A DNA stretch of 64,000 nucleotides from Obrimoposthia wandeli. Taxonomy: Eukaryota. The DNA lies in contig CDROCS010004773.1 in NCBI GenBank assembly GCA_977020255.1, positions 1 through 64,000 of the forward strand, given 5' to 3'. Position 1 is the first letter of the stretch. Each line of letters begins with the position of its first letter. A model generated the notes under the pieces. That model was not told the DNA's origin and ran no database searches. It saw only the letters and a program-made list of their open reading frames with translations. This document shows positions 1 through 59,185 of this stretch, piece after piece. A program made the translations under genes and the position numbers.

Positions 1-299
1 TCTGTATAGAACTTACCAAAGTGCTTAGAATTTTATATATATTTTTAGAAATACGTACATAAACGTATTCGATATATTAGTCCACGTGAATTACAAAATG
101 TCACAACTAATTTCTACAGTAGAACAAGTTGTTTTTTTCTCGAATACAAAGAGGCATCAATCAAATACCTTCAGATGCGTGAGATTAGAAACTATATAAC
201 ACTAAGTAGGCCATTCGCTTACAGAACCGTTCTATCGAACTACGTTGGGGCCCTCCGCACATAAGAGGATCTGTACCAAGTTTCGTATGAAAACTAACA
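1..299 (+). repeat. 3' end of the 5' LTR of copy A
   Basis: Aligns with 21870-22173 and 62550-62857 (e.g. gttggggccctccgcacataagaggatctgtaccaagtttcgta), with many indels. Confidence 0.85.
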
Positions 300-3260: not shown

Positions 3261-5499
3261 ATTGGTAATTTCAGTAATAATAATTTTGAAATATTTATAG
3301 AGGATATATTCACACTACTTGGCAGGAATGAGGTGAGTGAGATATACTCCACAATAATGGAGACCAGCGATAATCCAGTATACAGATAGACAACAGTCAC
3401 CAGGTAGATACAATAACTATGCAGACCAGAAGACAGCAAGGAGCTGAGAGATACAATAATTACGTAGGACAGCAAGGAGCTGAGAGATATAATAATTCCG
3501 GTAAGATATAATAATAATAATGTCGACAAGACGACGATGATCGAGAGTTCACTTCGAAATAAAGAAAGGAAATTTTTAGTTATGTAAGCGATGACAGTGA
3601 TAAAGATCGAGACCAACTCGACGCGAAATAGATTTTGAAGAAGATAGTGATGATAAATTTAGGAACGAATGTTTAAGAATAATCAAAAAGATTCACCACA
3701 CAAAGATGGCTTGTGAGTCATCTACGTTGTCAGGAAACAAGAGAATCACACTCGAGAGATGAATGATTGTGAATAAAATACTGAGGAAGCGTATGAGACA
3801 CTTATTTAAACGTGTAACGCAGCCTATGACTGATCCGTAAGAAATGCTACGAGGTGTAAACATCATGGTGTTAAAGCTAAAGGAAACGATTGAATCAACT
3901 TAGTGAATGAAACAAAATTTGAAGCTCAAGAGTTTGGCCAAATTGCAAACAATTAAGTACCGATTGGAAGAAGTGCAGGCAGAATTAGTGGTTAAACATA
4001 GTCATGATAACTTGGGGTTACAGAAACAACCGGACGCTATTGAAGAGTTATGGTCGTTATGTGCAGAATCAAAACCAAAGGAACGATGAAAATTTCATAC
4101 AGTTAATTTCGGACAGATAATACATGAAAAGAAACTTAACGTGTATCAAAAACCGTTGAAACGATTCGAAAAAATTAGCCGAGAAACTTGAGGTGATGGA
4201 ATCAGATATGTTGTTCCATTATAGGGGAGATCACTAGACGATGAGGACGTACCAGTCAGTGTGGATATCCGATGAGGAAATGGTTGATGTCATCACTGTG
4301 GGACGGCGTCAAGAGTTAATGGGTAATGAAGAAGGGGATTAACCGAGATATTGAATTCTGCGTTAGAAATGATAAAAAACGCCTATAGAAATTTTACTAG
4401 ACAGTTCAAGCGAAAGCGGAGATAATGATGTGGCTACAGGCTTGGAATTAGAACATCACACAGAACCAGTACGGCGTAGCTGAATTACAGACATCTGGTT
4501 GAAAATGGGTTGACAACTCCGGTGGTCGAGGAACACAGAACCAGATATAATTCAATCCAGACAAGATGAAGTCACGGATACAGCTAATCAAGCGAGACAA
4601 AAAACCTTGTGGCAACTAGTAGGAAGACAGAAATCTCCGAATTATATTTAGATTCTGAATTTGGCATGCCGCATACAAAAGATGAACAAAGCAGAGCCAG
4701 ATGATGCGACAAAATGAAGAAGAGATTGGCCATGAAGAAGGACCAAGTCACGGAGATACAGTATGGCCAGTGAAACATGATCCAGGAAGAGAGATGAAAC
4801 TGAGTATCAGTATTTTCAGAAGAGGACCTGGAAGACCTAGAAAGAAGGCAAGTATATTACAGAGAGAAAATGTTCAACTGCACCCTGCAAACTGATGAAA
4901 GAGACATCTGATTGGACAGTTGGCACGTCATTGAAACGAAACATAGTGCAGAGAATGAAGATGATATCAGAGGTGATATGAATTCGGAAACTCAGTATTG
5001 TAAAGAATATACTTACGGGGAATTCTGCTCGGAAACAACAAGTGAAGCCGAAGTTGTTTAAAAACGCAGAGATGAAACAACCATTTGATATAACAGACAG
5101 TTATTCTAAAGCAGTCAGATGCAGATGTCTGCGGTAAAGAGATGACCGCGAGATCATGTGCCATTGCATCGATAGATAGATTTTATGACCTGGTGAGGGG
5201 TTTTAGCGAGACTATGTAAAACCAGACTAAATAAAGTTAATTACAGCGATGCATATCTATGATGACCAATTGACGGAACGAACAGCTAACCTCACGAAGT
5301 CAAACAAGGAATAAATGAAGCAAACCTGTATTTGATCGAGAATGTATTGAAAGACGAATCGACGAAAATGGAGGTTGGAAAAAATTAAGTGACTACGCTA
5401 AAACCATTGTGGAAATGAATGAAGACGATGACGAACAATGTCATGAGAATCGAAGATAAATCAAAGAGAAAATAAAACAATACCGTCAGAAAGAGAGAA

Positions 5500-7433
5500 A
5501 CAATCAACCCAAATATAATCACAACAATGATGATGATGAGTGTTAGTAATGTTCATGGGAATGCAACAGGCATCAGGATTGATAGCACTTTTAGCAGCAT
5601 ACCAAAGAAGATGGGACAAAAGTATTCACTGCTTGACAGCGAAGACTGCCATCCAGAATCACAACCGTCAAAATTAGAAGTTCAAGGTGTTGAAAACTTC
5701 TTTTGTATTATCAGGATGTTGGCCATAAAGTACAAGTAGAAGTGAAAGAATATGTTTCAATCCATTCAAGTTATCACGGAATTCTATTGTGGCCATAGAA
5801 GTTTTATGTCGGAAATCACACTACCACACCGTACAAAGCACATAAGGTTTTGCCGAGAGATTGCAAAGGCATTTCGAACGGGAACGATAGAAGTGAACAA
5901 GAATTACAAACCTGAAGTAAAATTGGGAGTGAGACGATACGAAACAGTCGAGAGTCAGTTAACCGATGGAGCTAGATGGATCTTGTGACGGAGAAACAAA
6001 AAACGTGCGTGGGACCAAAGTATCTGAGATAGTAAAGGATAAAACTTACAAAATCGAATTAAAAACTTGGACCGCCAATTTTGATAAAAGACACAACTAA
6101 TGATGAAGTATCCAGAATGTAAAATGACAATACATCTTGTTTTACGAGCGAATCCACAATTGTCATGAAGTGAATCGAAGCAATGCTCTTAGTATTTTGA
6201 AAGAGATTAATAGTTTAATAAAATAAAGGATTCCTGTATAATAGAGATGGAGAAGGGTTCTGTATAATAAAGTTGGAAAAGGATTGCTAAATGAAACAAG
6301 ACCAATTCCAATGACAAAGACACTTTTCTACACTGTTAATGGCAACATCAATAGAAGAAAGGATTGATATTTATTAAAAAAGAAAACAAAGCGCGATGCC
6401 AGGAATGCTATTTTATGCCTATCCAGGAATAGTTTTGTCCAAAGAAGCAATAGCACTTGGCAGAAACCAAGCTAGGCAAACCAAAAAATGCAGCTACACA
6501 CGTATTTTAATAATAAAATTGATTTCTATTATCATAAAGGATTGATGCAAATGGAACAGATTATATCGGATGATGATCGAAAGAGATTGCCAGCTAAACA
6601 AGAGATCGTAAGAACAAAGTTAGCATTAGCTATTACGAATCAGACATGGTAGCACCATTATTACCCTTGGATGAAGGAGTATTTGCTAAAACCATGGGAG
6701 AAGTATTGTATACTTACAAGTGTAATAAAGTAGAGGTACAGTTGAGAAAAACAGATCGATGTACGAGTGAATTGGCAGTAACGTATAATTTAAAAGATCT
6801 TTTTTGTTGAACCAATCACGAGAATGTTACTTCAAAAGACACTCAACTAAAGAAATCAGCTGCTCTAATATAATGGCACCTGAATATCAGATGACGAATG
6901 ATCTATGGATAACGTTACCTGATCGGAAGCCAACGAAACCCAGCATGATAAGAATGACGAATCTTAAGGTAAATGAAATTCAAGCAGCGGTGTGAAAATA
7001 TGGAGAACGCAGGATTGTACAATGAAAAGATTTAAAAGCGGCGTGGAACGAAATAATGTTTCCAGTAAGAAGAGCCAGAGTACTTACGGAGATGGTACAT
7101 CGAAACGCATTACCGCCAGGAGCTGGATATGCGAATTTCGATATGTTATTATCGCCAAGTCATTTCAAGGAAGCAGCATCAAGGCACTTAGAAAATGTGG
7201 AAATTCTTGTTTTTGGACAATTATTTTCGGGTATCATAGGTATATATATTATAATTAAATTTGTGCAGGTAATTATGGCCCAGGTGTTGTCTACGTATAG
7301 TTTATACAGGATAACAGGAATCACCCATGCAACTTATAATTGGATGTTTTCCATTTTATATCTAATGCACTATCATCACGAGAACGAGTTGCGAGCCCTC
7401 AAGAAGGAACAACACAAACGAGAACCATGGTGA
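5500..7433 (+). pseudogene. env: Env-like fusion glycoprotein resembling chuvirus-type G (frameshifted as read)
   Basis: Fragments SLLDSEDC, EFYCGHRS, LLPLDEGVFAKTMGEVLYTYKCNKVEVQLRKTDRCTSELAVTY, EPITRML..C..MAPEY..W, then a C-terminal hydrophobic block FGQLFSGIIGIYIIIKFVQVI. Family assignment is from motif recall, not a search. Confidence 0.7.
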
Positions 7434-7759
7434 TGCGAGAACCAAGAAACTATCTGAGACGACAACGACGACGATAATGATAGTCCAGGAGTATATGCAA
7501 AGATACCAGGAAAACCAAAGATTCGTTACCAGACAAGGAAGAAGTGGCGTTAAACCTATCCCATCAATGAAGGAACTAAGGAGGAGGAGAAGGAAAGAAG
7601 TTCAAGAGAGGAAAAGCATCGCAATACATAAAGATGATAGGAGAAGGCCTAAAAGAGTGAGCTACAGTGAAATTCCACAAGCAAGAGGAAAAAGACAAAA
7701 AAGATAATTCCAGAAGAATTCTGAAGTCTAGGATATCAAATGAGAATCAGGTAATGCTC

Positions 7760-8085
7760 CACCACAAGTAGCAGTAACATTGAACGGAAGAGAATACCTT
7801 GCCGAAGTTGATACCGGATCTGCAGTATCAGTACTGAGTAAAGAAATCTTCTCATCAAAAGAATTAAGAAGTATGTCTAGAAAACAGACATTTGTTAACG
7901 TGAATGGTACAGATGTAGTGTCGGAAGGAACACTGAAATGTTCATTGAATATCGATGGAAGAAACATTGCAGTTAAATGCTAGAATATTCACAGATTGCG
8001 GAAGTCAGTCATGATTGGGATGGACGTAATACGAATGTTTGAAGGAATAATTATACTACCAAACAACAAGAGTTATAAAGAATGA
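7760..8085 (+). pseudogene. Retropepsin-like aspartic protease 1
   Basis: VTLNGREYLAEVDTGSAVSVL...VNVNG. After one in-frame TAG (7981-7983) the frame continues NIHRLRKSVMIGMDVI (xIGxD motif). Confidence 0.8.
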
Positions 8086-8259
8086 CAGTTCAAAGTGAGA
8101 GAGATAAAAATGTTGAGAGGACCCATAGTCGAAAAAGGAAAAATGCACTACGTTCCGTATGGGAGGTTCAATACCCAGACAGAAAACAGGAAGCGCTAGT
8201 AAAGTCGATACTTCACTACAAAAATGTAAATTTCGGACCACAAGCTACGACGAGGAGAA

Positions 8260-9320
8260 AATAACATATGTGAATTTGTCAGAAAAAGATCCCATGAGAT
8301 TCGAGAGAAAGAGACGAAATATATTAGAACAGTACTATTCAAAGGAATGGCACGTAAAATGGCAAGATCAGGTTTAGAAATGTTAAACGCGACAAGTAGT
8401 TATGGTCATGAGGAAGTAGTACGATGCGTATGGTGTAGAGTAAAGTTCAGAGAATGGGAAAAGAATGAAAAAGCAATGAGACGTCATAAAAGAGATGCAC
8501 CAAATTGTCCATTTCTTTTGAAACTGAAAACGTCAAACGTACCAGAAATCCAAACAGGGAAAAGCACCCGATTTCGATTACAGTGACAGGGATTCCAAAG
8601 GAGAATCAGCTCTAATAACAGGAAGAGTAATAACGAATAGTCAATTGAAGATATATTCGAAGTTATGCGAGAAGTGAACGAATGTGACGAACAATATCGA
8701 GAAGTAACTTTCGAAGATCCAAGACTTAAAAAAATTGGCAAAAAGGGACTTTTTGCTATAAAAAAGGATGGTAAAGACGTAATTAAATGCCACAAGTGTA
8801 AAAAAGAACGAATTATCGACAGATATACTCTTGAGCTACCTAAATTTTACATCATGAATTTTTGCGAATTTTGTACTTTTTAAAAACAAAATAAAGCAAA
8901 AAAGAACAGAAAACAGAATGTATAATCGAATACCAAAATCACACGAAAAGAGATTTTGGCTCAACAAGACACACCGGTAGTGTCATTCGTGAGAAAAGGT
9001 TATATCCAAAAGAAGCAGAAAGAATCAGAGAATTGGTAGAATTAAAAAATAAAAACTACGCGAAACGGATACGGATCGATTTTTGAATTACTGCGAGATA
9101 AAGATGACAGTACAATTGAAACAAAAGAGAAGAGTACATAAATGAATTAGAATACGTACTAGAAAAGATCCGGAATGCGCAGTTTGCATGGTCAACAAAA
9201 TAGAAGTTGCCTTTCTACCATGCGGACATGTAAGAACATGTCGGAGATGTGCGAAATGAAATGGTATCATGTCCAATTTGTCGAAGAATAATAGATCGAC
9301 AAGTGAGAAACATTAGATTT
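8260..9320 (+). pseudogene. Inhibitor of apoptosis (BIR + degenerate BIR + C3HC4 RING)
   Basis: ORF 8347-8586 has the canonical BIR spacing C-x2-C-x16-H-x6-C (CVWC...H KRDAPN C). 8665-8883 has R.VTF...GLF..D.IKCHKC. 9175-9290 gives CAVCMVNKIEVAFLPCGHVRTCRRCA//CPICRRII. Confidence 0.85.
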
Positions 9321-9384
9321 CACTATCCAAACAAAGGGAAGTGGACTGACAGAGTGTAATAATTCGATAAATACAATATACCAT

Positions 9385-10176
9385 ATGGGAAACATAAATG
9401 GAGCACAGCGACCAGCAGCTATCATTAGAGTAAATAATTTAAGAGTAAAAGCCTTAATTGATACAGGTGCTGTAGCTTCGATAGTAAGTGAAGACTGTTT
9501 GACAGAGGAACAGAAACGAACAATGGCAGAACCAGATGAATTCTTGGTATCGGTCAATGGAGACCCTGTAAAAGTGACGGGAATATTACCATGTACATTT
9601 ATAATTGGACGTAATACGATCACTATACCAGTTAGAATCATGAAAGAATGTCCTGAACCTACAATTTTAGGAATGGATGTATTATCACAACTCAAAGGGA
9701 TAAGTATTGATTTACAAGATCCAAGATTGAAGGATAGCACATCAAACAGACAAATAAACCAAATTGATGTAATTATAGAGAATCCTATAAAAATCGGTAA
9801 AAGATCACAATTTCTCATTCAAGGTCACACATTATCAGAAGATAAAGGACCAGTTGTGTTCGAACCATCACGAGATTTCATAGAGAAATACGAATTACCA
9901 GTTGTGAGTACAGTATGCCTGATCGAAAACCACAAAATACCAGTTAGACTGATGAATACAACCAACAATGACATCCTATTATACAGAGGAATGAGGTTGG
10001 GAAAGATAGTACAAATGGAGAATCCCACCGTGTGTGCTATGAAACTCGATAAAGATACGAATGATTACGAAGAAATAGTAATCCAATCAGAAAGACTGAC
10101 AACTAGAGAAAAGAAACAATTACTTGATCTAATACATAAATTTCCGAAAGTAATTGCAAAAATCCATATGACATAG
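9385..10176 (+). CDS. pol: Pol N-terminus: retropepsin 2 plus spacer
   Basis: ALIDTGAVASIV and PTILGMDVL motifs. Confidence 0.9.
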   Translation: MGNINGAQRPAAIIRVNNLRVKALIDTGAVASIVSEDCLTEEQKRTMAEPDEFLVSVNGDPVKVTGILPCTFIIGRNTITIPVRIMKECPEPTILGMDVLSQLKGISIDLQDPRLKDSTSNRQINQIDVIIENPIKIGKRSQFLIQGHTLSEDKGPVVFEPSRDFIEKYELPVVSTVCLIENHKIPVRLMNTTNNDILLYRGMRLGKIVQMENPTVCAMKLDKDTNDYEEIVIQSERLTTREKKQLLDLIHKFPKVIAKIHMT

Positions 10177-10199
10177 GAGAAACACCTGTCATAAAACAT

Positions 10200-10970
10200 A
10201 CAATACCACTGACAGAAGACAAAGTAGTCAGAAGAAGACCATATCGAGTACCATTACAATTACAAGATGAAGTAAAAGTCAGATCGAAGATATGTCTAAA
10301 ACAGAGTAATTAGACCGAGTTTTCGCCATTCTCAGCACCTGTGGTGTTGGTAAAAAAGAAGGATGGGAAAATGAGATTCTGTATAGATTTCAGAGAACTG
10401 AACAAGATCACAAGAAAAGATGTGTATCCATTACTAGAATCGAAGAGATGCTCGATAAATTGGGTAATTCAGATTATTTACGACATTGGATTTGCAGAGT
10501 GGATACTGGCAAATCGAGATAGAGGAAGAGGATAAACACAAAACAGCCTTTTCCTGCGGAGATGGATTGTACGAATGCGAAAAGATGCCATTCGGACTGA
10601 CAGGAGCTCCAGCAACATTTCAGCGTTGCATGAATTTTGTACTCGCATCGTGTGCAAACACGATGGTTTATATTGATGACATAATAATATTTTCGAAAAC
10701 GTTCGAAGAACATTTAAAAAATCTTGAAGTTGTATTTAAAAAAGACTGGAAAACGCTAAATTAAAAGTTAAACCTACAAAATGCGAATGGGCTAAAGAGC
10801 GAGTAACATTTTTAGGACATATAGTATCGAAAGAAGGCATTCGACCTGATCCAGCAAAGATCGAGAAGTAAAAGCATTTAGCGCCAAAGACTGTTAAGGA
10901 GATACAGAGTTTTTGAGGTCTTGCGAATTATTATAGACGATTTGTTGAACATTTTTCAGATATAGCAACA
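10200..10970 (+). pseudogene. pol: Reverse transcriptase (frameshifted as read)
   Basis: [55 protein letters not shown]. Confidence 0.95.
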
Positions 10971-10973
10971 CCA

Positions 10974-11711
10974 TTGAGAAAGTTGACGAGAAAAGATGAG
11001 AAGTTCATATGGGGAGAAGAAGCCCAACAAGCGTTCGAGCATTTAAAAGAAAGACTGATAAAAGCACCAATATTAGCGTTTCCAGATATAAACCGACAAT
11101 TCATACTCATGACAGATGCAAGTAACTATGCTGTAGGAGCAGTATTGGGACAAGAGGATGACGAAGGAAGAGAACACGTCATCGCGTATGCGAGTAGAGG
11201 ATTAAACAGAGCCGAAAGAGGATACTCTGTTATCGAAAAGGAATGTCTAGCCATAGTGTATTCATGTAGACAGTACAGACACTACTTGCTAGGACAAAAA
11301 GTATTCCTATATACAGATCACAAACCACTACAGTTCTTGTATAAACATAGAGATGAGATGAGTAGATTAAACAGATGGTTCCTAAAATTAGCCGAATTCG
11401 ATCTAGAAATCCGTTATAGAACCGGAAAGTCGAACGGCAACGCAGATTGTTTATCGAGATTGACAAATGTAGACGAAAAAGGAAACATAATTCCAGAAGA
11501 AGATGAAACCAATGACCAAAAAGGAGAAGCAAATCTACTGACGATTTTGCTAAAGACGGGTAAAATAGACAAAGAGATCATCAAAGAACAGAAAGAAGAT
11601 GAAGAACTGAGTCTAATCAAAGAATTGTTGGTGAAAGGAGATCTAAACGATGAAATGACGAAAAAATACTCGATAAAAGAAGGAATCTTGTATATAATGT
11701 CGGAAAGATAG
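10974..11711 (+). CDS. pol: RT connection + Ty3/Gypsy RNase H
   Basis: LMTDASNYAVGAVL, YSVIEKECLAIV, YTDHKPL, NGNADCLSR. Confidence 0.95.
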   Translation: MRKLTRKDEKFIWGEEAQQAFEHLKERLIKAPILAFPDINRQFILMTDASNYAVGAVLGQEDDEGREHVIAYASRGLNRAERGYSVIEKECLAIVYSCRQYRHYLLGQKVFLYTDHKPLQFLYKHRDEMSRLNRWFLKLAEFDLEIRYRTGKSNGNADCLSRLTNVDEKGNIIPEEDETNDQKGEANLLTILLKTGKIDKEIIKEQKEDEELSLIKELLVKGDLNDEMTKKYSIKEGILYIMSER

Positions 11712-11731
11712 TAGTAGTAATTCCGAAGTCA

Positions 11732-13264
11732 TTGAAAACAGCAGTGATGATCCAGTATCACGACGGAACACTAGGAGGACATCTGTCAGGGCGAAAGACA
11801 ATAGCCAGAATCAAAGAGAAGTACCATTGGGATGGTATGGAAGACGACATAAAACAATGGTGTAAACAATGTAAAGTATGTTTAACCAGAAAAGACACCG
11901 GAACTCGTACTAAAGTTCCACTGAAACCAATGCCAGTTCCCTTGGCACCAATGGAATTCACAGCGATGGATATATTGGGACCATTGAGAGAATCAAGTAA
12001 AGGAAACAAGTACGTCATAGTATTTACGGATTACATGACGAGATGGGTAGAAGCATATCCCATGCAGAACCAGAAAGCTGAAACAATAGCGCAAATCTTA
12101 GTGGAAGAGATAATATTTCGATACGGAGTGCCCAGAAAGTTATTAACGGATCAAGGTAAGAACTTCACTGGAGAAGTCATAAAAGCAGTATCGAAGATAT
12201 TCGGAATCATGAAGTTACAAACTTCACCATATCACCCACAGACAGATGGTCTGGTAGAAAGGTTTAATAAAACTTTATGTATGATGGTACAATCCTATTG
12301 CTCAGACAAGCAAGAGGATTGGGATAAATATTTACCTTCATGTCTATATGCTTACAGGAATTCAGTTCGAGAGGCGACGGGTCACACACCATTCTATCTG
12401 ATGTATCTCAGACAGAACAATATGCCGATGGATCTGGAGTGGACCGAGCCAACATCTCAGTATCTAGAAACTGAACAATACATTGTCGTCATGAAGGAAA
12501 GATTACAAGATGCTTGGACCAAAGCCGGATTGAAGTTGAAATTCAATCAAGAAGGTTACAAGGAACAATACGACAAAAAAGCAAAACCACATGAATTTAG
12601 AGTCGGAGATCAAGTGATGATATTTTATCCAGTCATCGAACCAGGTCTATCGTTTAAACTTCATAGACCATACAAAGGACCATACAAGGTGATCCAGACA
12701 ACTTCAACAAATTTGAAAGTAATCAACGAAGAGAATCGGAACAAGGAACCGATGATTGTACATGCAAATCGATGCAAATTAGTACCAAATAAAGATAATG
12801 CGTCACGATATGAGTTAAGATCACAGAAATCGAAATCGAATACCAATACCATTAAACTTACACGAATGGTAAGTGATCGGAACTACATAAACATGATGAC
12901 GAGTGGTAGCGAGGAAAAACCAGCAAGAATTGGTATGCTCAGAATGAAGTACCAAGAGGAAAAGGAAGTAATCCGACACATCGCACCACAAGAGATATTA
13001 GAAGAAGACGAAGAGATAATAGTCGTTTTCGAAAAAACACAACCAACAGATGTAGCTAAAGAAGTCATTGTGAAAGATGCACTAACAAACGAATTTCTGT
13101 GCGAACTTAGAGTGTCATACTATGACGGGAATACACTAGTCGCAGCGCTTTATCAAAATTCCAATGTGTTTACGACTGAGAAAGTGATAATCGAAATCAC
13201 ATTGACACCAAACATAGTTGCATGGCAGAACTATGACAGTACTGAAGCAGGACTAGCCAGTTAG
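11732..13264 (+). CDS. pol: Integrase (HHCC, DDE core, GPY) with C-terminal extension
   Basis: YHDGTLGGH...CKQC, AMDILGPL, LLTDQGKNF, TDGLVERFN, PYKGPYKV. Confidence 0.95.
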   Translation: MKTAVMIQYHDGTLGGHLSGRKTIARIKEKYHWDGMEDDIKQWCKQCKVCLTRKDTGTRTKVPLKPMPVPLAPMEFTAMDILGPLRESSKGNKYVIVFTDYMTRWVEAYPMQNQKAETIAQILVEEIIFRYGVPRKLLTDQGKNFTGEVIKAVSKIFGIMKLQTSPYHPQTDGLVERFNKTLCMMVQSYCSDKQEDWDKYLPSCLYAYRNSVREATGHTPFYLMYLRQNNMPMDLEWTEPTSQYLETEQYIVVMKERLQDAWTKAGLKLKFNQEGYKEQYDKKAKPHEFRVGDQVMIFYPVIEPGLSFKLHRPYKGPYKVIQTTSTNLKVINEENRNKEPMIVHANRCKLVPNKDNASRYELRSQKSKSNTNTIKLTRMVSDRNYINMMTSGSEEKPARIGMLRMKYQEEKEVIRHIAPQEILEEDEEIIVVFEKTQPTDVAKEVIVKDALTNEFLCELRVSYYDGNTLVAALYQNSNVFTTEKVIIEITLTPNIVAWQNYDSTEAGLAS

Positions 13265-13342: not shown

Positions 13343-15211
13343 ATGGTATTACGTAATTCACATGGGAAAAGAGATATCATGAGAGTCCATTTAATCGACG
13401 CTGACACTGAAAAGATAATTTGTCAGATGGACACCAAATACTTTGATGGAAAGACAATTGTATGTTGTATACCAGAATCTCACCGGTTAGACACAGATCA
13501 AACGGAAGTATCTGTAAGGTTGAGCGTAATAGAAGGATTTCATTCGCTAAACCATCCGGAAGTGACTAACAATAAAATCATCAAAGCAACGGCAGAGTTA
13601 CGCATTGACAGCGGATACCGGAAGTGGGAAGCTAAAAATAAAAAACCACAAAGAATCAATATGATCCGAGAACAAGTGACCAACTCAATCCAGCCAAAAT
13701 ATCATGCTGAAATAGTATCATCCGCGCCAAGTGTAATTACATCGATAAACGACGAAATTATAATTTTACTAAAAAATCGATGGCCGTCATCAACTGAGAT
13801 ACGAGTAAACTTAATTAATTATGCGAAGACACCGATATCTAAGCTGAATGTTACCTATTTCGATGGATTGTCCATCATGGGTAAATTAGAAACAATTGTC
13901 ATGTGCTATGGAGCACAGTTCCAAGTTGAGATACTTAAAGACAGTGTAATACCGTATCCAATTCACAAATACGAAGGGGAAATCAATCCAATTATTCTAA
14001 CCCCTTCATTAATTTCAGTTCAGACAGACATACCAGAATACCCTTCGAGCGAGTCTAGTGAAGACAGCGAACCGGAAAGTAACGATACAGAATCAACAGA
14101 ATCCGAAGATAACATAATAGAGCGATTCGGAAGAACCATGGAGGTTGAATTCGCTAAAGAGAACAGAAAAAGACAAAACATAGAATTCGTGAAACAGAAT
14201 ATACAAGAAAGACGAATTAAATCTGCAGAAGAGACCGAGTCGGAAGAAGACTCAACAAAGGAACAGACATCAGAGACAAAGATGAATATCTCTCCAGCAA
14301 TACGAATGCTGAGAGGAAAGAAACTGGCAAAACTATCTAACATCGACGAACAGATAGAGAAGAGATTAGAAAGACTAAAACTTGAAGAGTCAGAATTAAT
14401 GCCACCAATGAGTGAGATCATTCCAGGTAAGTTATACCTCGGAAATGTGGAGGATGCAACAGATGAAAAGAAACTGTTGGAACAAGGGATAACATACGTG
14501 ATCAACGTTACAATGAATCACAAATCACAATATCAGACGATCAGAGCCATGACATTAAGAGTAAAAGACTCAATGGATGCTAATCTTCTCGAATGGTTCG
14601 TAGAAACAAACGAAATACTTCACAGAGAACTCCGGAACCAAGGAAAAGTGTTGGTACATTGTCAGAAAGGAATTTCTCGATCAGCAACTCTAGTATTAGC
14701 ATACCTAATAAAGACTAGACGAATGCAGGTACTAGAAGCGCTAAAATACCTACAGGAGAGAAGAAGTATTGCAAACCCAAATCTTAATTTTTTGGGACAG
14801 TTGGCAAATTACCAACTTCTGTTGCAAGAACAAAGACGGATGGACGACATTCCTGAGGATCCAAAGGAAAAGAATTTCCTCCAAGCATTATCATTGACCG
14901 GGTTATTCTTAGCCGGAGTCGACAAAATTACACAGATAATGCCAAAGGTATTTTTATGTCATCCAGGAGATATAGATACTGCTGGATTAAAGTTCCACAG
15001 TATCAACCGAGTAATCAACATTGTTGAAGTCGGAAACGAAATAATCAGTCTGTGTCAAAATACTGAAGATGACACCACTCGATACATACACGCTTCCAAT
15101 CGAGAAATAAACGATGCACAACAACATCTGACGAAATTGACTCAAACCATCCAAGCTGAAGTCACAGAAGGAAACGGCGTTCTGATATATCAGAAAAAGG
15201 TACGATGTTAG
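13343..15211 (+). CDS. Accessory polyprotein: repeated ~90-aa domains, acidic linker, dual-specificity phosphatase, start of a pseudophosphatase
   Basis: SEIIPGKLYLGN...GITYVINVT...VLVHCQKGISRSATLVLAYL...PNLNFLGQL (CX5R intact, Cys at 14660). A second DUSP-like unit starts ITQIMPKVFL. Same frame as the integrase ORF, separated by one TAG. Confidence 0.9.
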   Translation: MVLRNSHGKRDIMRVHLIDADTEKIICQMDTKYFDGKTIVCCIPESHRLDTDQTEVSVRLSVIEGFHSLNHPEVTNNKIIKATAELRIDSGYRKWEAKNKKPQRINMIREQVTNSIQPKYHAEIVSSAPSVITSINDEIIILLKNRWPSSTEIRVNLINYAKTPISKLNVTYFDGLSIMGKLETIVMCYGAQFQVEILKDSVIPYPIHKYEGEINPIILTPSLISVQTDIPEYPSSESSEDSEPESNDTESTESEDNIIERFGRTMEVEFAKENRKRQNIEFVKQNIQERRIKSAEETESEEDSTKEQTSETKMNISPAIRMLRGKKLAKLSNIDEQIEKRLERLKLEESELMPPMSEIIPGKLYLGNVEDATDEKKLLEQGITYVINVTMNHKSQYQTIRAMTLRVKDSMDANLLEWFVETNEILHRELRNQGKVLVHCQKGISRSATLVLAYLIKTRRMQVLEALKYLQERRSIANPNLNFLGQLANYQLLLQEQRRMDDIPEDPKEKNFLQALSLTGLFLAGVDKITQIMPKVFLCHPGDIDTAGLKFHSINRVINIVEVGNEIISLCQNTEDDTTRYIHASNREINDAQQHLTKLTQTIQAEVTEGNGVLIYQKKVRC

Positions 15212-15378
15212 CGCCTACCATAGGTGTATCCTTGTTGGTAGAGTACCATGGTCACACGCCAGAAGAAGCGATGGTCTACATCAAACAGAATAGACCAAAT
15301 ACGGAATTCAAACCGTTACTCGTTCGAGAAATAGAAAAAATACACCGAAAAGAGGAAGCAACAACGAGAAACAAATGA
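14920..15378 (+). pseudogene. Second, catalytically dead DUSP-like domain
   Basis: After a 1-nt shift at ~15198 it reads GVLIYQK-GTMLAPTIGVSLLVEYHGHTPEEAMVYIKQNRPN, with no Cys or Arg in the P-loop position. Confidence 0.65.
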
Positions 15379-15391
15379 AGCTACAACAACA

Positions 15392-16021
15392 GTGCCCAGC
15401 TTTCAATACCAAAGATTGTTAGCGATAGGCTTGTTAAGTTGTCTAATGCCAATAACGGGAGCACAAGAAATAGGCTCCAACCACGGAAATAGTTCCTGGT
15501 TCAACGAAATCCACAACTACACCATACAGTACCATACGCCGGCACTGATGATGCTATTAGTGTTGTTAGGACTAATTGATGTGTGGATCATCCGAAAATG
15601 TCTTCGATCTATGAGAACCGACAGTAAAAGATTTCAGTTTGTAAAGATGAAAAGACCAAATGGACCAACGAACAAAGTGCTTGTGTATCTAGACGAAAGG
15701 ATCGAGGACAACATAGTAAATGAAGCGATATTTTACCCACAAAACAGAATACTGAATCAATTTCGAATAGATTACGAAGCTGACCGACAGCGCACACTTG
15801 ACCGAATATCAACAACATTCGCCGGATGCAAGCGAAGAAAACGAGTTGTAAAGGAAATACAAAAAGATGCTGATACAAAAGGACCAACGTATATATTCGA
15901 CGGCGATGTCATCAAAACACGTGAGTATGGAAGTAAGAGAGTAATAATTGAAACGATGGAAGGACATAAAACATGCTTGTCCGCCAAAAATGGATTCGGA
16001 AAGTTGACGATACAAAGGTAA
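15392..16021 (+). CDS. Putative membrane protein of unknown function (no ATG; possibly part of the polyprotein)
   Basis: 209-codon open frame with a signal-like segment LLAIGLLSCLMPITGA and a TM-like segment ALMMLLVLLGLIDVWII. Confidence 0.5.
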   Translation: MPSFQYQRLLAIGLLSCLMPITGAQEIGSNHGNSSWFNEIHNYTIQYHTPALMMLLVLLGLIDVWIIRKCLRSMRTDSKRFQFVKMKRPNGPTNKVLVYLDERIEDNIVNEAIFYPQNRILNQFRIDYEADRQRTLDRISTTFAGCKRRKRVVKEIQKDADTKGPTYIFDGDVIKTREYGSKRVIIETMEGHKTCLSAKNGFGKLTIQR

Positions 16022-16061
16022 CCCGGTACAGTTAATTATCGGAAGAAATGGAATCGAGGAG

Positions 16062-18080
16062 ATGTCAAAACAACGACAGACAACAAAACGATCCAATCAG
16101 AAACAGATATCTCTCAAACGATTGATAATTAAAACCCTTTGCAAAAGGTCAGTCAAGGCCCTGTGCACCGTTGCACAAGGATTGATCTATGGAGTAGTAA
16201 TTGGATTGGTACTGCAAGCCATGCCAACCAGTAAAGCCGAATTGATGACACTATCTGAATATAATTTACATTTGAGAAATCTAGACAACACCCTAGAAAT
16301 AATCAAGACATCCCACAGTAAAGCCGTGATGATCATGTGTGTAAAAGGATGTCCAGGACGAATGTGTATAGTCCCAGCGACCGAAATGATAACACTTAAT
16401 GGACATTATGGAATTAGTGTTGTCACATGTGAAGACTACATATTTGGACAAACTAAAATAGTGCTTCTCAGTGACATGTCCAACCAAAGTGCACACAAAT
16501 TTAAAATATTAACCATCAAGAGTAAAGGAATACCAGCAGTACGTTACGGTATTCTAGAATTGGTTAATCCGATACTCGCACTGATCATTGGATTTATAAT
16601 ATTAATATTACTCATCTTGTTTTGTTGTACAAAGATAGAGTTGAGATCAAAAAAGAAACGTCATGATCTCGCAAGACGAACAGGTCAAATGAATTTACAA
16701 AAATTCAACACAAGTATACCAAGACCACCCTTCCTAGATGAACCAGCACCAGAGTACCAGCCAACGATATATGAACATATCGAGGAAAGACCGTACTATA
16801 TGAGTAATTTGAGTTGTTTCATTGAAGTTCCTGAGTTTAGGAATCGAACGATCATAGGAATCATGCTGATCATACAAATTACCACTACCAAGGCTAGTTA
16901 TGTGATCATGATCAGTAAATGGAGACAAGATGTAATACGGGCGTTATACATAGAAATCCCTTTATTAAAAACAAATCACGTAGTAGACATTCATCTACAG
17001 ACGTCAGCAACCGACAATATCGATCAGAAATTGTATGTCATCCGACAGGTCAGAATAAAGATCGACCAAAATACACCCGATTACAATTTAATATTATTGT
17101 ATCATGAAAAAGTGTTATACCTACGGATAACAATATCGAAGAGGAAGCGGATTATCCAAAGTATCCGAACAAAGTCATTAATATTGCCTAGAGATGAACG
17201 CATCTGGAAAATTGTCGACAGGATTATGATCACAGGTAGACGACGTAAAGCCGTATGGAATTCCGTTAGGATATTTTTCAGATTGCTAGAAACTGACAAA
17301 GTAACAGTAATGTGTCCCAACCCAGATGGCGGAATCAGATTCGAAATCCAAAGCCAAAAGTTAGTACCACATTTTAACACGGAATGTCTGTGTAATCGAA
17401 TTTCCAGTAATACTACAGAGACCTCGACCATAATCATGATAATAACAGGTGAAATATTCTACATAACTCTAAGATACCAGAACCGTCGATTTCGTAGATC
17501 CGGTATAAGTATCAAACCCAGGAAAATCATTCCCAAAAGGCCAATCCTAGTCAGAAAGAAGGCAAAAGTAAACGAAAGTAAACGCCATTCCAAAAAACCG
17601 ACAGTGATCAGAACAAAGACAGAAGCGAAAGAAAAAGAGCTCAATCCCAGAAACCAAAGTACAATTATTAAGAGGACAAGAGTGAGGGGAACGATCCCAC
17701 TAGATCCCAAACATCATTTCCAATCCAAAATAATAATACCTGTTCCATCAGAAACAAAACACCCAAATCCACGAATTTTTAGAAAATCGGACATAATACA
17801 TGGAAACCGATCAAAACCCATGGAAATGTCATTTGAACCGACAAACAACAAAATGAAGTATGATTATAAATCATCAGACAGCGGAATAACAACGGTCAAT
17901 GCCCTAATTGGAATGGCCGTAGTGTCAACAACAGTGGTTCTATTGACAGTCGTGTGCGTAAAAGGCAGTCAAGTATGCCCAAGAATACGACGAAAATGCG
18001 AAGGATTGCGATGCTGTGACACACCCATCATGGAGGAAGTGGAATTGCGACCCTTACCTCCGCCTTCCATCAAGATATGA
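16062..18080 (+). CDS. 672-aa multi-membrane-segment protein of unknown function
   Basis: Long intact ORF with four hydrophobic segments (GLIYGVVIGLVLQA, ILALIIGFIILILLILFCC, IIGIMLIIQITTTKA, ALIGMAVVSTTVVLLTVVCV). Confidence 0.7.
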   Translation: MSKQRQTTKRSNQKQISLKRLIIKTLCKRSVKALCTVAQGLIYGVVIGLVLQAMPTSKAELMTLSEYNLHLRNLDNTLEIIKTSHSKAVMIMCVKGCPGRMCIVPATEMITLNGHYGISVVTCEDYIFGQTKIVLLSDMSNQSAHKFKILTIKSKGIPAVRYGILELVNPILALIIGFIILILLILFCCTKIELRSKKKRHDLARRTGQMNLQKFNTSIPRPPFLDEPAPEYQPTIYEHIEERPYYMSNLSCFIEVPEFRNRTIIGIMLIIQITTTKASYVIMISKWRQDVIRALYIEIPLLKTNHVVDIHLQTSATDNIDQKLYVIRQVRIKIDQNTPDYNLILLYHEKVLYLRITISKRKRIIQSIRTKSLILPRDERIWKIVDRIMITGRRRKAVWNSVRIFFRLLETDKVTVMCPNPDGGIRFEIQSQKLVPHFNTECLCNRISSNTTETSTIIMIITGEIFYITLRYQNRRFRRSGISIKPRKIIPKRPILVRKKAKVNESKRHSKKPTVIRTKTEAKEKELNPRNQSTIIKRTRVRGTIPLDPKHHFQSKIIIPVPSETKHPNPRIFRKSDIIHGNRSKPMEMSFEPTNNKMKYDYKSSDSGITTVNALIGMAVVSTTVVLLTVVCVKGSQVCPRIRRKCEGLRCCDTPIMEEVELRPLPPPSIKI

Positions 18081-18203
18081 TGAGTCAGAGGAGGTTGTAG
18101 ATAAATTAGTGTGTGAAATATGTAGAAATATCTAGAAGCGATTGTACAAATAGTAGAAATATATAAAACTCATGTAGAAATTAATTCTCATCATGTATTT
18201 AGA

Positions 18204-18503
18204 ATGTCCGAAGAATGCCCAATATGTTTGGAAGATCTAACCGAACGAAGAACAAGACCCGAAACCTGCAACCATTTACACCACGAGGAATGTTTATCGA
18301 CATGGATCAGAACTTATGGACAGTTCGGACATCCAACATACCCTTGTTGCCCTGTATGCAGAAGACAATTCGCAAGATTCATCATGTTAGAACCCAACCA
18401 AGAGGATGTATATGTACAGGTGGTATTCTGTTGGAAGAATTTCGGAGAGTGTTGGTGTTATTACTGTTTGTCAGAACGACAAAATCCGACCACTTTTGTG
18501 TAA
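18204..18503 (+). CDS. RING-H2 protein 1
   Basis: CPIC...CNHLHHEEC...W...CPVCR. Confidence 0.85.
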   Translation: MSEECPICLEDLTERRTRPETCNHLHHEECLSTWIRTYGQFGHPTYPCCPVCRRQFARFIMLEPNQEDVYVQVVFCWKNFGECWCYYCLSERQNPTTFV

Positions 18504-18563
18504 ACATCACACAACCACCAGTCCTCAATCGAGCCCAAATTCAACATCAACCCTCTCACAGTA

Positions 18564-18869
18564 ATGTCTGGAGAATGTTCCATCTGCTACGAGAGCATCG
18601 TGGACTTCTACACCAAGCCCAACAACTGCGACCACCTCTTCCACGTCGAATGCCTCGAGACGTGGATCCCCATCGCAAACAGCAACAATCCCCTCGACTT
18701 CCCAACCTGCCCGATGTGCAGAGCGACCTTCTCAGTACACTACGTGTACAACCAGGACAGCCTCCAAGCAGTGATACCCATCGTACACTGCTGGAAAACC
18801 ATCTGCGATTGCTGGTGCTCGTTCTGCGTGGAGGAGCGAAGCACAGGCCAGCCCAATTCCCAACAATAA
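18564..18869 (+). CDS. RING-H2 protein 2
   Basis: CSIC...CDHLFHVECLETW...CPMCR. Confidence 0.85.
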   Translation: MSGECSICYESIVDFYTKPNNCDHLFHVECLETWIPIANSNNPLDFPTCPMCRATFSVHYVYNQDSLQAVIPIVHCWKTICDCWCSFCVEERSTGQPNSQQ

Positions 18870-19208
18870 TCGAAGGTAACTTTCTGACTTGAACGTGACA
18901 TCATGAACTACCCTGTGTATCGCATACCGCGATAAATTAGCTACCATAATTGTAATCATAATTATATAATCTTGTGAACTGTAAATTGACCATTACCATT
19001 TTTATGTATGATGTTTAACTGAAATTGTAATTATTATACTGAAATTCTAAAAAGACAATTTTTATGCTTAGTGTGAATGCGTAAACATGCCTAAAATCGG
19101 AACAAAACTCGGTAGGATTAAATAACTAAGGATTCGTTTTGAAATAAAATTTAAATTAACGATGAGAACGGTGAACCCCAAATTGAAAGGAGTTATTTTC
19201 TTGTGCAG

Positions 19209-19739
19209 ATGAAGTGTTCTGTATGCATGGAGAAAATTTGGGCGGCATCAGCATCCCCTGTCGGCTGCTGTCACAAATTTCACGAGGCGTGCCTCTATTT
19301 GTGGGCCAAGGCTCGACCCCCTGGCCAAATCACGTGCCCACTGTGCCGGACACCCTTTGGCAAATGGACGCTCCAGTGCCGTGGACGATCCAAGGGCACC
19401 CGATCACCTGCCAGCTGCATTGGTGGCATACACTGCCAGTGCTACGTGTGTCTCGCACGCCGGCGCGACACACAATTGGGCATCCGCGAGCGATGGCGGT
19501 CTAGCCGTGACTGCCATTCATGGTTCCAGGCCAGACGTCTATGGATGGAGAACCATGCGCTGAACGGGCAATATTTCGACCTGTTTGTCGAGAGCCCACA
19601 CCTAACCCGGAGCCAGCAACTACACCTCTACAACGGGGACAGTCCGTCCTTTCCCGATCTACCCCTGGAGCAGGTCCTGCGTTACCTGACCAGTCGGAAT
19701 CAGCCGACAATTACAATCGATCTAACTAACGACAATTGA
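19209..19739 (+). CDS. RING-H2 protein 3 with C-terminal SIM-like motif
   Basis: ATG at 19209. CSVC...CCHKFHEACLYLW...CPLCR, ending TITIDLTNDN. The C-terminal half is conserved in copy B. Confidence 0.88.
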   Translation: MKCSVCMEKIWAASASPVGCCHKFHEACLYLWAKARPPGQITCPLCRTPFGKWTLQCRGRSKGTRSPASCIGGIHCQCYVCLARRRDTQLGIRERWRSSRDCHSWFQARRLWMENHALNGQYFDLFVESPHLTRSQQLHLYNGDSPSFPDLPLEQVLRYLTSRNQPTITIDLTNDN

Positions 19740-20564
19740 TAACGTTAAATCCTTTCCTCCCTTCTTTCCTTCCTAATTCTTAATTTATTCATGTAGATTT
19801 TTTTGTGTATAAGTAATAATGTATGGTTTGAGACTTGCTCCAAATTATACATTATGATTCCCACTAAAAACTGGGGTTTTGAGAATTTTTTTTTGGGCAT
19901 GTTTGATGAGTTGAATGATTGATTTTGTAGGGATGAACCTAAAATCAACAGCCAGAGGCTTGTATAAGTAAAATCGATACGTTCCGGGGACGTAACTTTT
20001 TTGGAACCCCCGAGGTATGTTAGGTTTGAGAATTAAGAAATTAAAATATTTTAGTCGATTAAATACTAAAATAAAAATCCTTGAAAGCAAGGTTGAAAAT
20101 TAAATTAAATATTAATTTTAGATTCAAAATTGAAATTAGTGGAAGTTAGGGTAAAAATTAGGAGGACCACGAAGGTCGTGTATAGTGTAAGATATATATA
20201 AGTTAAATTAATTAACCCAAAAGTGCAACAAAACACATTAATAAAAGAAAAAGGAAACGTCAATTAAAGAACGTCAATTAAGGTAAGCACATTTTCGTGC
20301 AGTGAGTTAAAATTAATTTTCAGCTGTTCAATATTGCTGAATTCCTATAAGCCGGAAGAGCAGGAACACTCAAGAGTTGATTGACAACTCATAGCGAATA
20401 TAAAAGAGTCGCTGACGAAGTGAACACAAACCAGAACGAAAATTAGCTAGGAATCAATATCACCTGAAGTCTACGGAGCGGAATCTTGGTAAGTAGGAAT
20501 TTGGGTTGCATTTATAATCAATAATTTAGATTGCCGCATATAACTGATTAGAAGAAGCTAATTG

Positions 20565-21140
20565 TCAGTTTTAAAAGGAATAATCATCAATTGCCAGTTT
20601 AAAAGGAATAATCATCAATTGCCAGTTTAAAAGGAATAATCATCAATTTCCAGTTTAAAAGGAATAATCGTAAGTTGCCAGTTTTAAAGAATAATCGTTT
20701 ATTGTCAGTTTAAAAGGAATAATCGTAAATTTCCAGTTTTAAAGAATAATCGTTTATTGTCAGTTTAAAAAGAATAATCGTAAATTTCCAGTTTTAAAGA
20801 ATAATCGTTTATTGTCAGTTTAAAAAGAATAATCGTAAATTGCCAGTTTTAAAGAATAATCGTAAATTGACAGTTTTTAAAGAATAATCGTTTATTGTCA
20901 GTTTAAAAGGAATAATCGTAAATTGACAGTTTTTAAAGAATAATCGTTTATTGTCAGTTTAAAAGGAATAATCATCAATTGCCAGTTTAAAAGGAATAAT
21001 CGTAAATTGACAGTTTTTAAAGAATAATCGTTTATTGTCAGTTTAAAAGGAATAATCATAAATTGCCAGTTTTAAAGAATAATCGTTTATTTTCAGTTTA
21101 AAAAGAATAATCGTCAATTGCCAGTTTTAAAAGAATAATC
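20565..21140 (+). repeat. LTR-A minisatellite, ~28-bp unit
   Basis: gtttaaaaggaataatcatcaattgcca and variants. Confidence 0.9.
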
Positions 21141-21260
21141 GCCTATCGATAAACCTTCGAAGACGATCACACCAGTTCGTCAGAACTACATACGGATCCA
21201 GTACCGGATTGACGCAGTCGCAGCTAGTCGCAGCATATCGGTAAGAACACCGACTAGAGC

Positions 21261-21695
21261 ATTCATTGCCCCTAGTTGGCAATTAGGATACATTCATTAC
21301 CCCTTGTTGGTAATTCGAAATTTTAACATATTAACCAGATTCATTGTCCCTAGCTGACAATTAGGATTGCTGTCTCTTTAACCAAATCATTGTCCCTAGT
21401 TGGCAATTAGGATTGTCCATTTTATTCATTGTCCCCAGCGACAATTAGGAATTGTACCAGTTTTTCCCGTAAGATTCATTGTCCCTAGCTGACAATTCGG
21501 TTCACTCATTGTCCCTAGTTGACAATTCGGAACAAATACTCATTGTCCCTAGTTGACAATTCGGTCCACTCATTGTCCCTAGTTGACAATTCGAACCAAC
21601 ACTCATTGTCCTAGTTGACAATTCGGAGTAAGTTTTCATTGTCATCGTTGACAATTAGGTTTTTAGGAGAATCATTGTTCACAGTGGACAATTCG
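21261..21695 (+). repeat. LTR-A array of 12 palindromic ~27-nt cores with variable spacers
   Basis: tcATTGTCcctagytGACAATt(a/c)gg x12, counted by eye. Confidence 0.9.
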
Positions 21696-22249
21696 TGGTT
21701 AATATACAACAGATAGAGTTACGGATTCAAGAAGCTTTATCCACACATAAGAAGTAGAATCGAAGAAATTTAAGAGAGTTGCGTTATAGATTAACCAACC
21801 TAAGAAGAAGAATAACCCTAAAATCTCGATCACCCGAACGTAAAATCGATACGTGGTTCATCCCCACTTCTTGTAGAGACTTACAGAAGTCTTAGGAATT
21901 TTACCATACTTTTTAGAAATACGTACATAAACGTATTGTTGTGTTAGTTACGTGAATTACAAATAAACAATTTCCTACAGTAGAACAAGTTGTTTTTGCA
22001 CCCTTCAGAATAAGAGACATCAAATCAAATACCTTCAGATAGTACAAGAGATTAGGCAACCATAACACTAAGTAGGCCACGACCAACTTTAAGACCTGCT
22101 TCTAATCGAACTCACGTTGGGGCCCTCCGCACATAAGAGGATCTGTACCAAGTTTCGTAATGAAACCCCAACAGCTTAAATATTATTTTTTAGTTTGCCA
22201 AAAGACAAATATGACTCCAAAACAGTTTTCGCGGATAACTTAGCTGTTG

Positions 22250-57135: not shown

Positions 57136-57360
57136 TTATTATTTTTTAAAATTGTAATTATATATATTTTATTTTTATTTTTTATTCAGGAAATACCGTG
57201 GTACAGCCATTTTCCGCTACAACAGCTATGCCTCCACCATCGCGAGTGTCTACATTGATGTTTGCACGCCTTAGAGGTAATAATTGTTAAAAATATATTT
57301 ACTTTTAATATATTTATTTCAGCAGCATAATCCTCTACAACAGCCGCTCCTTCATCGGCA

Positions 57361-58191: not shown

Positions 58192-58199
58192 GTTTATTT

Positions 58200-59099: not shown

Positions 59100-59185
59100 T
59101 ACAACAATTTGAATAGAAAGAAAATTTAAATTTAGGTAAAGAAGGCTTAGCACCCATATCTTTAGCTGATTTTTGAAATAATTGT

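What the first reader, a model, noticed from the sequence alone, without database searches (positions are those of the whole stretch)
8260..9320. BIR-BIR-RING inhibitor of apoptosis embedded upstream of RT
The canonical BIR zinc spacing C-x2-C-x16-H-x6-C, a second degenerate BIR and an IAP-type C3HC4 RING appear to run into PR2 without a non-coding spacer. An IAP made together with Pol could keep transposing cells alive. I recall IAP content being discussed for planarian giant elements, so novelty is uncertain.
Basis: partly seen in the sequence, partly recalled or inferred. Interest (0 to 1): 0.75.

Follow-up and report, generated by a model that had tools for sequence, protein, structure and literature searches.

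The report
Host anti-death gene inside giant retrotransposon
A giant flatworm-type retrotransposon carries an intron-free copy of a host cell-death-blocking gene inside its one long protein, an arrangement already described for planarian Burro elements, though here a second, unrelated kind of mobile element carries a relative of the same gene.

Summary
Window 8,193-9,330 encodes BIR - atypical BIR - UBA-like - RING, between two aspartic proteases of a ~23-kb Burro-like gypsy element. The window copy is broken by frameshifts that look like assembly noise. All 18 Cys/His positions checked are intact, 9 of 30 sibling loci are open from PR1 to RT, and sibling frames reach 4,985 aa. The cassette is under purifying selection (pN/pS 0.10-0.32), and its RING-to-PR2 junction occurs 6,361 times.

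This kind is in print: BIR in Burro/GYPSM1, and a functional Burro1 B-IAP (Lee 2026, seen second-hand only).

Added here: (1) the likely donor, an intron-bearing host IAP, lies elsewhere in the genome; (2) the 'degenerate' second BIR (C-x2-C-x18-H-x3-C) is inherited from that lineage, not decay; (3) two Maverick/Polinton families carry stand-alone IAPs of the same clade (3,423 pattern matches). Separate captures versus exchange between elements is unresolved. Anti-apoptotic action, protease release and expression of this family are inferred, not shown; BIR1 lacks some canonical peptide-groove residues.

The parts
1..292 (+). end of the 5' LTR (cut by the contig start)
   Evidence: 79% match to 21,872-22,165
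6598..7430 (+). C-terminal part of the Monjiviricetes-type fusion glycoprotein (env), broken in this copy; in frame with PR1 in siblings
   Evidence: PF24664 E 6e-12 and 1e-11; 1e-95 in a sibling frame
7756..8074 (+). aspartic protease 1 (VDTGS, Asp at 7810)
   Evidence: PF13975/PF13650
8193..8275 (+). pre-BIR segment homologous to the start of the stand-alone host and Maverick IAPs
8276..8530 (+). BIR1, C-x2-C-x16-H-x6-C
8680..8890 (+). BIR2, atypical C-x2-C-x18-H-x3-C, shared with the host gene and one Maverick family
   Evidence: spacing counted by eye from those sequences
8956..9106 (+). UBA-derived segment, diverged
   Evidence: collinear match to cIAP1 3T6P; UBA profile 7.8 bits vs best shuffle 5.2, host exon 22.8
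9160..9330 (+). IAP-type C3HC4 RING and the tail that ends the stand-alone genes
9391..9703 (+). aspartic protease 2 (IDTGA, Asp at 9460)
10170..13264 (+). RT (YIDD near 10,669), RNase H, integrase
14342..14815 (+). dual-specificity phosphatase domain, same polyprotein in a sibling
   Evidence: PF00782 E 2e-34
18126..19739 (+). three RING-H2 ORFs downstream of the polyprotein
20018..22180 (+). 3' LTR (approximate ends)

Best explanation
The element captured a processed copy of a host IAP gene and fused it in frame between two aspartic proteases of its single Gag-Env-Pol polyprotein. SHOWN: the domain order, one open frame in siblings, purifying selection, thousands of copies, and an intron-bearing host gene of the same clade while the element form has no introns. 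INFERRED: each round of translation yields one IAP per Gag and Pol; the element's proteases cut it out at the flanking linkers as a protein of about 420 aa; it then works as a BIR-targeted RING E3 ligase that damps caspase activity, so the cell expressing the element survives. The functional step rests on IAP biology and on the reported Burro1 B-IAP result, not on any test of this family.
For: One frame from the Gag zinc knuckle through RT in one copy, and from before BIR1 through IN and DSP in another. Open frames around the IAP reach 4,985 aa (88 scored of 20,171 candidates). 9 of 30 loci are open PR1-to-RT. Ligands: 536 of 540 cells intact. pN/pS among 13 copies with at most 3 frameshifts: BIR1 0.32, BIR2 0.19, RING 0.10, against RT 0.06. 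Variants shared by two or more copies in the IAP: 43 synonymous, 23 non-synonymous, ratio 0.14. Host gene at G000:C369: six exon-like pieces over about 13 kb, GT donors after three and AG acceptors before two. It is the best match of the element IAP (211 bits; Maverick A 150; best other IAP in that comparison 96). Host + gypsy + Maverick clade 96/95, and with P0007 100/100 against 8 other IAPs. Closest solved relatives are cIAP1/XIAP. [quoted passage not shown]
Against: BIR1 keeps Trp and an acidic residue of the IBM pocket but has Arg and Asp where the last BIR of an XIAP has Gln and Trp (alignment; roles of these residues recalled). The UBA is diverged (7.8 bits). After cleavage the RING would keep a 15-25 aa C-terminal extension, whereas the host and Maverick genes stop 3-5 residues after the last Phe; IAP RING dimerisation is recalled to be sensitive to this tail. 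BIR1 is the least constrained of the three zinc-binding domains. The selection figures come from the 30 best DNA hits of 6,038 candidates (40 scored), so they lean towards similar copies, and pairs are not independent. The proposed cut motifs were defined after seeing them, so their enrichment is circular.
Confidence: 0.68

Rival explanations
1. It is an active E3 ligase, but its job is to blunt innate or stress signalling or to remove a restriction factor, not to block caspases.
For: The element also carries a phosphatase with an intact HCxxGxSRS motif, a weak ubiquitin-like segment and RING-H2 ORFs. The RING is more constrained than BIR1. BIR1 resembles the first BIR of XIAP at the R-H and post-His positions.
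Against: The reported function of Burro1 B-IAP is anti-apoptotic (second-hand). The two roles are not exclusive.
Confidence: 0.17
2. The working IAP is made from a separate spliced or internally started RNA or from a few host-co-opted copies, not by cleavage of the polyprotein.
For: The cassette corresponds to a whole gene, and Mavericks keep it as a stand-alone ORF with its own stop.
Against: There is no stop after the RING in siblings, so a separate RNA would still read on into PR2. Proteases flank it on both sides.
Confidence: 0.1
3. It is a passenger, kept only because the frame between Env and Pol must stay open.
For: Any stop here would cut off Pol, which explains the open frame without IAP function. 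BIR1 pN/pS (0.32) is close to that of the upstream linker (0.35).
Against: An open frame does not require Zn ligands or low pN. RING: 4 synonymous and 0 non-synonymous shared variants; UBA segment 6 and 2. All four domains persist at about 32% identity to the host gene.
Confidence: 0.05

Closest known systems
Burro1/GYPSM1 of Schmidtea mediterranea and its B-IAP (Jurka 2007 and Grohme 2018 as cited in PMC6431247; Lee et al. Dev Cell 2026 as cited in PMC13465017)
   Same: Giant gypsy-type LTR element in thousands of copies; one ~5,000-aa ORF; Gag, then a mononegavirus-like env in frame, then Pol; BIR and RING cargo.
   Different: About 23 kb rather than over 30 kb. No Pfam hit to MATH, BCL2 or ankyrin; one CCHC knuckle detected. 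A DSP domain, RING-H2 ORFs and a second protease bracketing the IAP are not mentioned in the passages I read. No direct sequence comparison with Burro1 was possible.
Cellular IAPs cIAP1/2, XIAP, DIAP1 (BIR-UBA-RING)
   Same: BIR, UBA-like segment and C-terminal C3HC4 RING in the same order.
   Different: Two BIRs, the second with H-x3-C spacing; no CARD-sized insert; diverged UBA; embedded in a polyprotein; no introns.
Maverick/Polinton (adintovirus) accessory IAP genes (PMC8502044)
   Same: IAP homologs in these elements are mentioned there; two such families here carry an IAP of the same clade.
   Different: They are stand-alone ORFs of 341 and 301 aa. A shared host source with a retroelement was not found in my searches.
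Baculoviral BIR-BIR-RING IAPs (recalled)
   Same: Two BIRs plus RING carried by a mobile genome, presumably to block host cell death.
   Different: This IAP groups with the host's own gene. No row labelled baculoviral was in my trees, so that comparison was not tested directly.

Membership tests
IAP (BIR-RING) | BIR with C-x2-C-x16-H-x6-C above the Pfam cut-off | tested here: met
   40.1 bits vs 22.9; ligands intact in 29 of 30 copies
IAP (BIR-RING) | second canonical BIR | tested here: not met
   17.1 bits, below cut-off; spacing C-x2-C-x18-H-x3-C, shared with the host gene
IAP (BIR-RING) | C3HC4 RING of IAP type after the BIRs | tested here: met
   44.5 bits; best solved matches cIAP1/cIAP2/XIAP RINGs
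IAP (BIR-RING) | UBA domain | tested here: inconclusive
   7.8 bits vs best of 200 shuffles 5.2; host exon 22.8; P0007 35.6; no Pfam UBA hit
IAP (BIR-RING) | IBM-binding (type II) groove | tested here: inconclusive
   some positions kept, others replaced, against XIAP-like P0060; residue roles recalled; no usable structure model
IAP (BIR-RING) | caspase inhibition or E3 activity | not testable with these tools
   needs bench work
Burro-type giant gypsy elements | LTRs | tested here: met
   three siblings with paired LTRs; main matched segments 94.6-99.7% identical, one further segment 88.7%
Burro-type giant gypsy elements | single ORF of about 5,000 aa | tested here: met
   open frames of 4,985 and 4,722 aa
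Burro-type giant gypsy elements | env in frame between gag and pol; PR-RT-RH-IN order | tested here: met
Burro-type giant gypsy elements | BIR cargo and thousands of copies | tested here: met
   6,361 exact pattern matches, reversed control 0; may include haplotype duplicates
Burro1 itself | MATH, BCL2-like and ankyrin motifs | tested here: not met
   no Pfam hit at E <= 0.1 in sibling frames; profile-profile search not run, so weak forms could be missed
Burro1 itself | total length over 30 kb | tested here: not met
   23.0, 23.3 and 23.5 kb between the outer matched LTR ends in three siblings
Burro1 itself | sequence identity to Burro1/GYPSM1 | not testable with these tools
   no named Burro sequence was available
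Maverick/Polinton (carriers of the related stand-alone IAP) | A32 ATPase, rve integrase, protein-primed PolB, double jelly-roll capsid, matching ends | tested here: met
   across four extended loci: PF04665, PF00665+PF00385 and PF03175 at or above cut-off in at least one locus each; DJR only weak (E 0.0097); the same hairpin sequence at both ends of a ~15-kb unit; no one locus showed all features

The most novel reading that the evidence does not exclude
One host IAP lineage has been taken up by two unrelated classes of mobile element in the same genome, a retroelement and DNA virus-like Mavericks, and passed from one to the other; a phosphatase may have travelled the same way. About 9,800 element-borne IAP copies would then face one detected host gene of this clade and could together set the cell-death threshold of the animal's stem cells. 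Carriage by both classes is well supported; the probability given is for direct exchange between them.
Probability: 0.3. Interest if true: 0.65.

Novelty: new member of a known kind. Interest (0 to 1): 0.36.

Why it matters
The headline, an IAP inside a planarian giant retrotransposon, is known and reportedly tested for Burro1, so it is not a surprise. What this genome adds is a natural comparison: an intron-bearing host IAP, a polyprotein-embedded retroelement copy and two stand-alone Maverick copies of one clade. That makes it testable whether mobile elements repeatedly take the same survival gene, how a RING ligase works when it must be cut out of a polyprotein, and whether the anti-death benefit reported for Burro1 is shared by other elements.

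Tried and rejected
Expression: no RNA holder listed; this is no evidence either way. Contigs of four runs (one sample, kind unknown) laid on a sibling covered all 30 bins and listed one indel at the 20% threshold over 2.2 kb; this cannot test indels private to the window copy, and the joints were low-depth and uninformative.

Structure: the single-sequence model was unusable (mean pLDDT 34.9); an alignment-based job had not finished, so no fold search was run. The ESM Atlas gave no usable hit for the UBA segment.

Homolog and locus searches: the word-index protein searches found only 1 and 2 distant IAPs. No related loci in viral or metagenome contigs or phage records, so the context of P0007, P0047 and P0050 stays unknown. 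A whole-protein search for a host ortholog was swamped by element copies; an N-terminal query found it. Three look-ups of earlier scan findings returned nothing.

Analyses set aside: a tblastn-based ligand count was confounded by frameshifts and replaced by DNA-level alignment. The protease-site motif count is circular and kept as a lead only.

Rejected: chance motif; BIR2 as decay; the window copy as an old decayed insertion, because its pS 0.047 and pN 0.007 match copies without indels; the IAP as a separate ORF in this family.

Full report
1. Observation. Three-frame translation of 7,600-10,300 shows BIR1 with the spacing C-x2-C-x16-H-x6-C at 8425-8508, a second Cys/His cluster at 8788-8874 and a RING split over frames at 9176-9290, between two DTG proteases. 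Pfam gives BIR 40.1 bits (cut-off 22.9) and zf-C3HC4_3 29.2 bits for a 23-aa fragment (cut-off 27). The BIR motif occurs once in the window and never in 40 shuffles.

The window copy is broken. Against a sibling it has 70 indels in about 4 kb, 62 of them frameshifting and 17 of these in the BIR1-RING span. Yet no aligned codon is a stop and all 18 Cys/His positions checked are intact. Its substitution distances (pS 0.047, pN 0.007) equal those of copies with no indels. Over all copies, 159 of 256 one-base indels lie by a homopolymer, against 29% of background positions. I infer assembly noise rather than decay; this was not tested with reads of this locus.

2. Context. A DNA search of the own genome had 6,038 candidates, of which 40 were scored (93-96% identical apart from the window itself) and 30 fetched, the window included. 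Of the 30, 15 are open from BIR1 to PR2 and 9 from PR1 to the YIDD of RT. One copy keeps one frame from the Gag knuckle to RT and another from before BIR1 through integrase and phosphatase; frames around the IAP reach 4,985 aa. The order is Gag CCHC, weak ubiquitin-like, Monjiviricetes-type fusion protein, PR1, IAP, PR2, RT, RNase H, integrase, DSP phosphatase, unknown tail, then RING-H2 ORFs. Three siblings have paired LTRs and span 23.0-23.5 kb. A pattern for the in-frame RING tail matches 6,361 times, control 0; haplotype duplicates may be counted. That the host is a planarian is my inference from the element type.

3. Selection. Of 540 ligand cells (18 positions x 30 copies) 4 are changed. 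Pairwise pN/pS among the 13 copies with at most 3 frameshifts (17 dropped) is BIR1 0.32, BIR2 0.19, the BIR2-RING linker with the UBA 0.12 and RING 0.10, against RT 0.06, PR2 0.03 and env 0.14. The 23-codon RING-PR2 linker gives 4.6 on very few sites, and the linker before BIR1 0.35. Variants shared by two or more copies in the IAP are 43 synonymous and 23 non-synonymous (0.14); singletons are 47 and 67 (0.37). The copies were chosen by similarity and pairs are not independent.

4. Domain detail. Solved-structure searches return cIAP1, cIAP2, XIAP, NAIP and DIAP1; cIAP1 3T6P also aligns weakly in its UBA, in the right order. A UBA profile built from 103 library segments scores P0007 35.6 bits, the host exon 22.8, the Mavericks 17.5 and 8.0, and the element 7.8 against a best shuffle of 5.2: descended from a UBA, but diverged. 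BIR2 is below the Pfam cut-off (17.1 bits). Counted by eye, its C-x2-C-x18-H-x3-C spacing recurs in the host gene, P0007, P0047 and Maverick A, so it marks the lineage. Against the three BIRs of a named XIAP (P0060), BIR1 keeps some groove positions and differs at others, looking more like XIAP's first BIR after the His (the roles of these residues are recalled).

5. Origin. A BIR family search scored 150 of 12,110 candidates and fetched 30 loci. Of these, 28 fell in two repeat clusters, 0 of 30 had PR1 or PR2 beside the BIR, and 14 of 30 had an A32-type ATPase within the flank. Four extended loci hold rve-chromo integrase, A32 ATPase, protein-primed PolB and a weak double jelly-roll hit, though none showed all of them; one unit has the same hairpin at both ends. 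These are Mavericks. Their stand-alone 341- and 301-aa IAPs align end to end with the element IAP (33-37% in the alignment), and their stop-terminated tail matches 3,423 times (not every match was checked for context).

A profile search of 1.84 billion representatives gave 11,879 hits; 3 of the best 150 matched in one end-to-end stretch (P0007, P0047, P0050), none with an organism name. The start of P0007 picked out one outlier among 150 scored places (E 1.2e-7, next 6.6e-4). It is part of a gene with six exon-like pieces over about 13 kb; GT donors were seen after three pieces and AG acceptors before two, and the other ends were not fixed. Its last exon ends in the same tail as the Maverick genes. 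It is the element IAP's best match (211 bits vs 150 for Maverick A).

Trees: a 45-row tree put gypsy, Maverick and the three library proteins in one clade against 35 other IAPs (100/100, bootstrap not settled). Nine of the 35 were named, all animal cellular IAPs, none baculoviral. The outgroups were gathered with a profile of the ingroup. With the host gene added, and P0047/P0050 dropped as long branches, host + gypsy + Maverick has 96/95 and Maverick + host 80/80 (25-row version). AU tests reject neither gypsy + Maverick (p 0.26) nor gypsy + host (p 0.12); host + P0007 is rejected (p 0.026). So host origin and intron loss are well supported, and the route is open. My odds: parallel capture about 0.55, exchange between elements about 0.3, other 0.15.

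6. Mechanism. Shown: in-frame position between two proteases, constraint, host origin. Inferred: one IAP per polyprotein, release by the element's proteases (look-alike motifs lie at both linkers, but the motif was chosen after the fact), and action as a RING E3 that damps caspases so the expressing cell survives (0.68). Rivals: an E3 aimed at signalling or restriction factors (0.17), expression from a separate RNA (0.10), passenger (0.05). Expression was not established.

7. What is known. PMC6431247 (section 7 read whole; passages) reports BIR in GYPSM1/Burro1 and Burro-2 to -4, ORFs of 4,873-5,140 aa and env in frame between gag and pol, citing Jurka 2007 and Grohme 2018, which I did not see. 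PMC13465017 (passages) says Burro1 acquired a RING-BIR 'B-IAP' that protects stem cells from caspase-mediated apoptosis, citing Lee et al., Dev Cell 2026; that paper is not held, and I saw neither it nor its supplements. PMC8502044 (passages) mentions IAP and Bcl2 homologs in adintoviruses/Polintons; its supplementary figures were not seen. bioRxiv 10.64898/2025.12.11.693146 (passages) reports Maverick expansion in Dugesia. PMC8532177 and PMC10680173 (passages) cover BURRO1 silencing and Maverick cargo. The listings of nine searches showed no paper on a shared IAP between planarian Mavericks and Burro, but the key paper is outside the library.

8. Verdict. It works like an IAP and meets the BIR and RING criteria; the second BIR is non-canonical. 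The element is Burro-like but fails two Burro1 features (length; MATH, BCL2 and ankyrin by Pfam), so I file it as a new member of a known kind. Interest 0.36. The most novel open reading, exchange of the gene between a retroelement and Mavericks, has probability about 0.3 and would merit 0.65.

Noticed in passing
G000:C760, C463, C3067, C3621 (L070-L083); L042-L069: Two Maverick/Polinton families carry stand-alone IAP ORFs of 341 and 301 aa, collinear with the element IAP; the stop-terminated tail pattern matches 3,423 times.
   Followed up: yes
G000:C369 about 346,100-359,300, minus strand (L116, L117): Intron-bearing host IAP gene of the same clade, the likely donor. A Maverick polymerase fragment lies about 9 kb upstream on the other strand.
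   Followed up: yes
window 14,342-14,815 and L072:2547-3257: The element's dual-specificity phosphatase (intact catalytic motif) has a 31%-identical homolog next to the IAP in Maverick family A, where the motif is altered; a possible second shared cargo.
   Followed up: partly
window 5,400-7,430: Monjiviricetes-type fusion glycoprotein in frame between Gag and PR1, as described for Burro.
   Followed up: partly
window 18,126-19,739: Three short RING-H2 ORFs between the polyprotein and the 3' LTR.
   Followed up: no
window 15,300-18,080: About 900 aa at the end of the polyprotein with several hydrophobic stretches and no convincing Pfam hit.
   Followed up: no
window 56,600-60,340: Maverick fragments (ATPase, integrase, polymerase-region pieces).
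   Followed up: partly
window 60,600-64,000 and 44,500-46,700: A second LTR of the same family followed by the 49-bp tandem repeat also seen at 695-1,417, and a partial copy of the 3' region and LTR.
   Followed up: no
L017, inside BIR2: A one-base deletion is carried by 15-22% of contig depth in four runs of one sample, hinting at a frameshifted subfamily; it was not seen at that place in the other 29 loci aligned.
   Followed up: no
L084:5315-5806 and L087:5146-5382: Two other BIR-bearing host exons, resembling survivin and BIRC6 (labels recalled).
   Followed up: no
L031, just after the 5' LTR: A primer-binding-site-like sequence that resembles the complement of an elongator tRNA-Met end (recalled); the matching place in the window is garbled.
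   Followed up: no
G000:C3084 (L054-L056): Three identical-scoring BIR remnants spaced about 7.15 kb apart, a tandem array of a Maverick-related fragment.
   Followed up: no
library proteins P0047, P0050: Unnamed stand-alone, fast-evolving IAPs of the same clade; they group with the gypsy IAP (93/92) but on long branches.
   Followed up: partly
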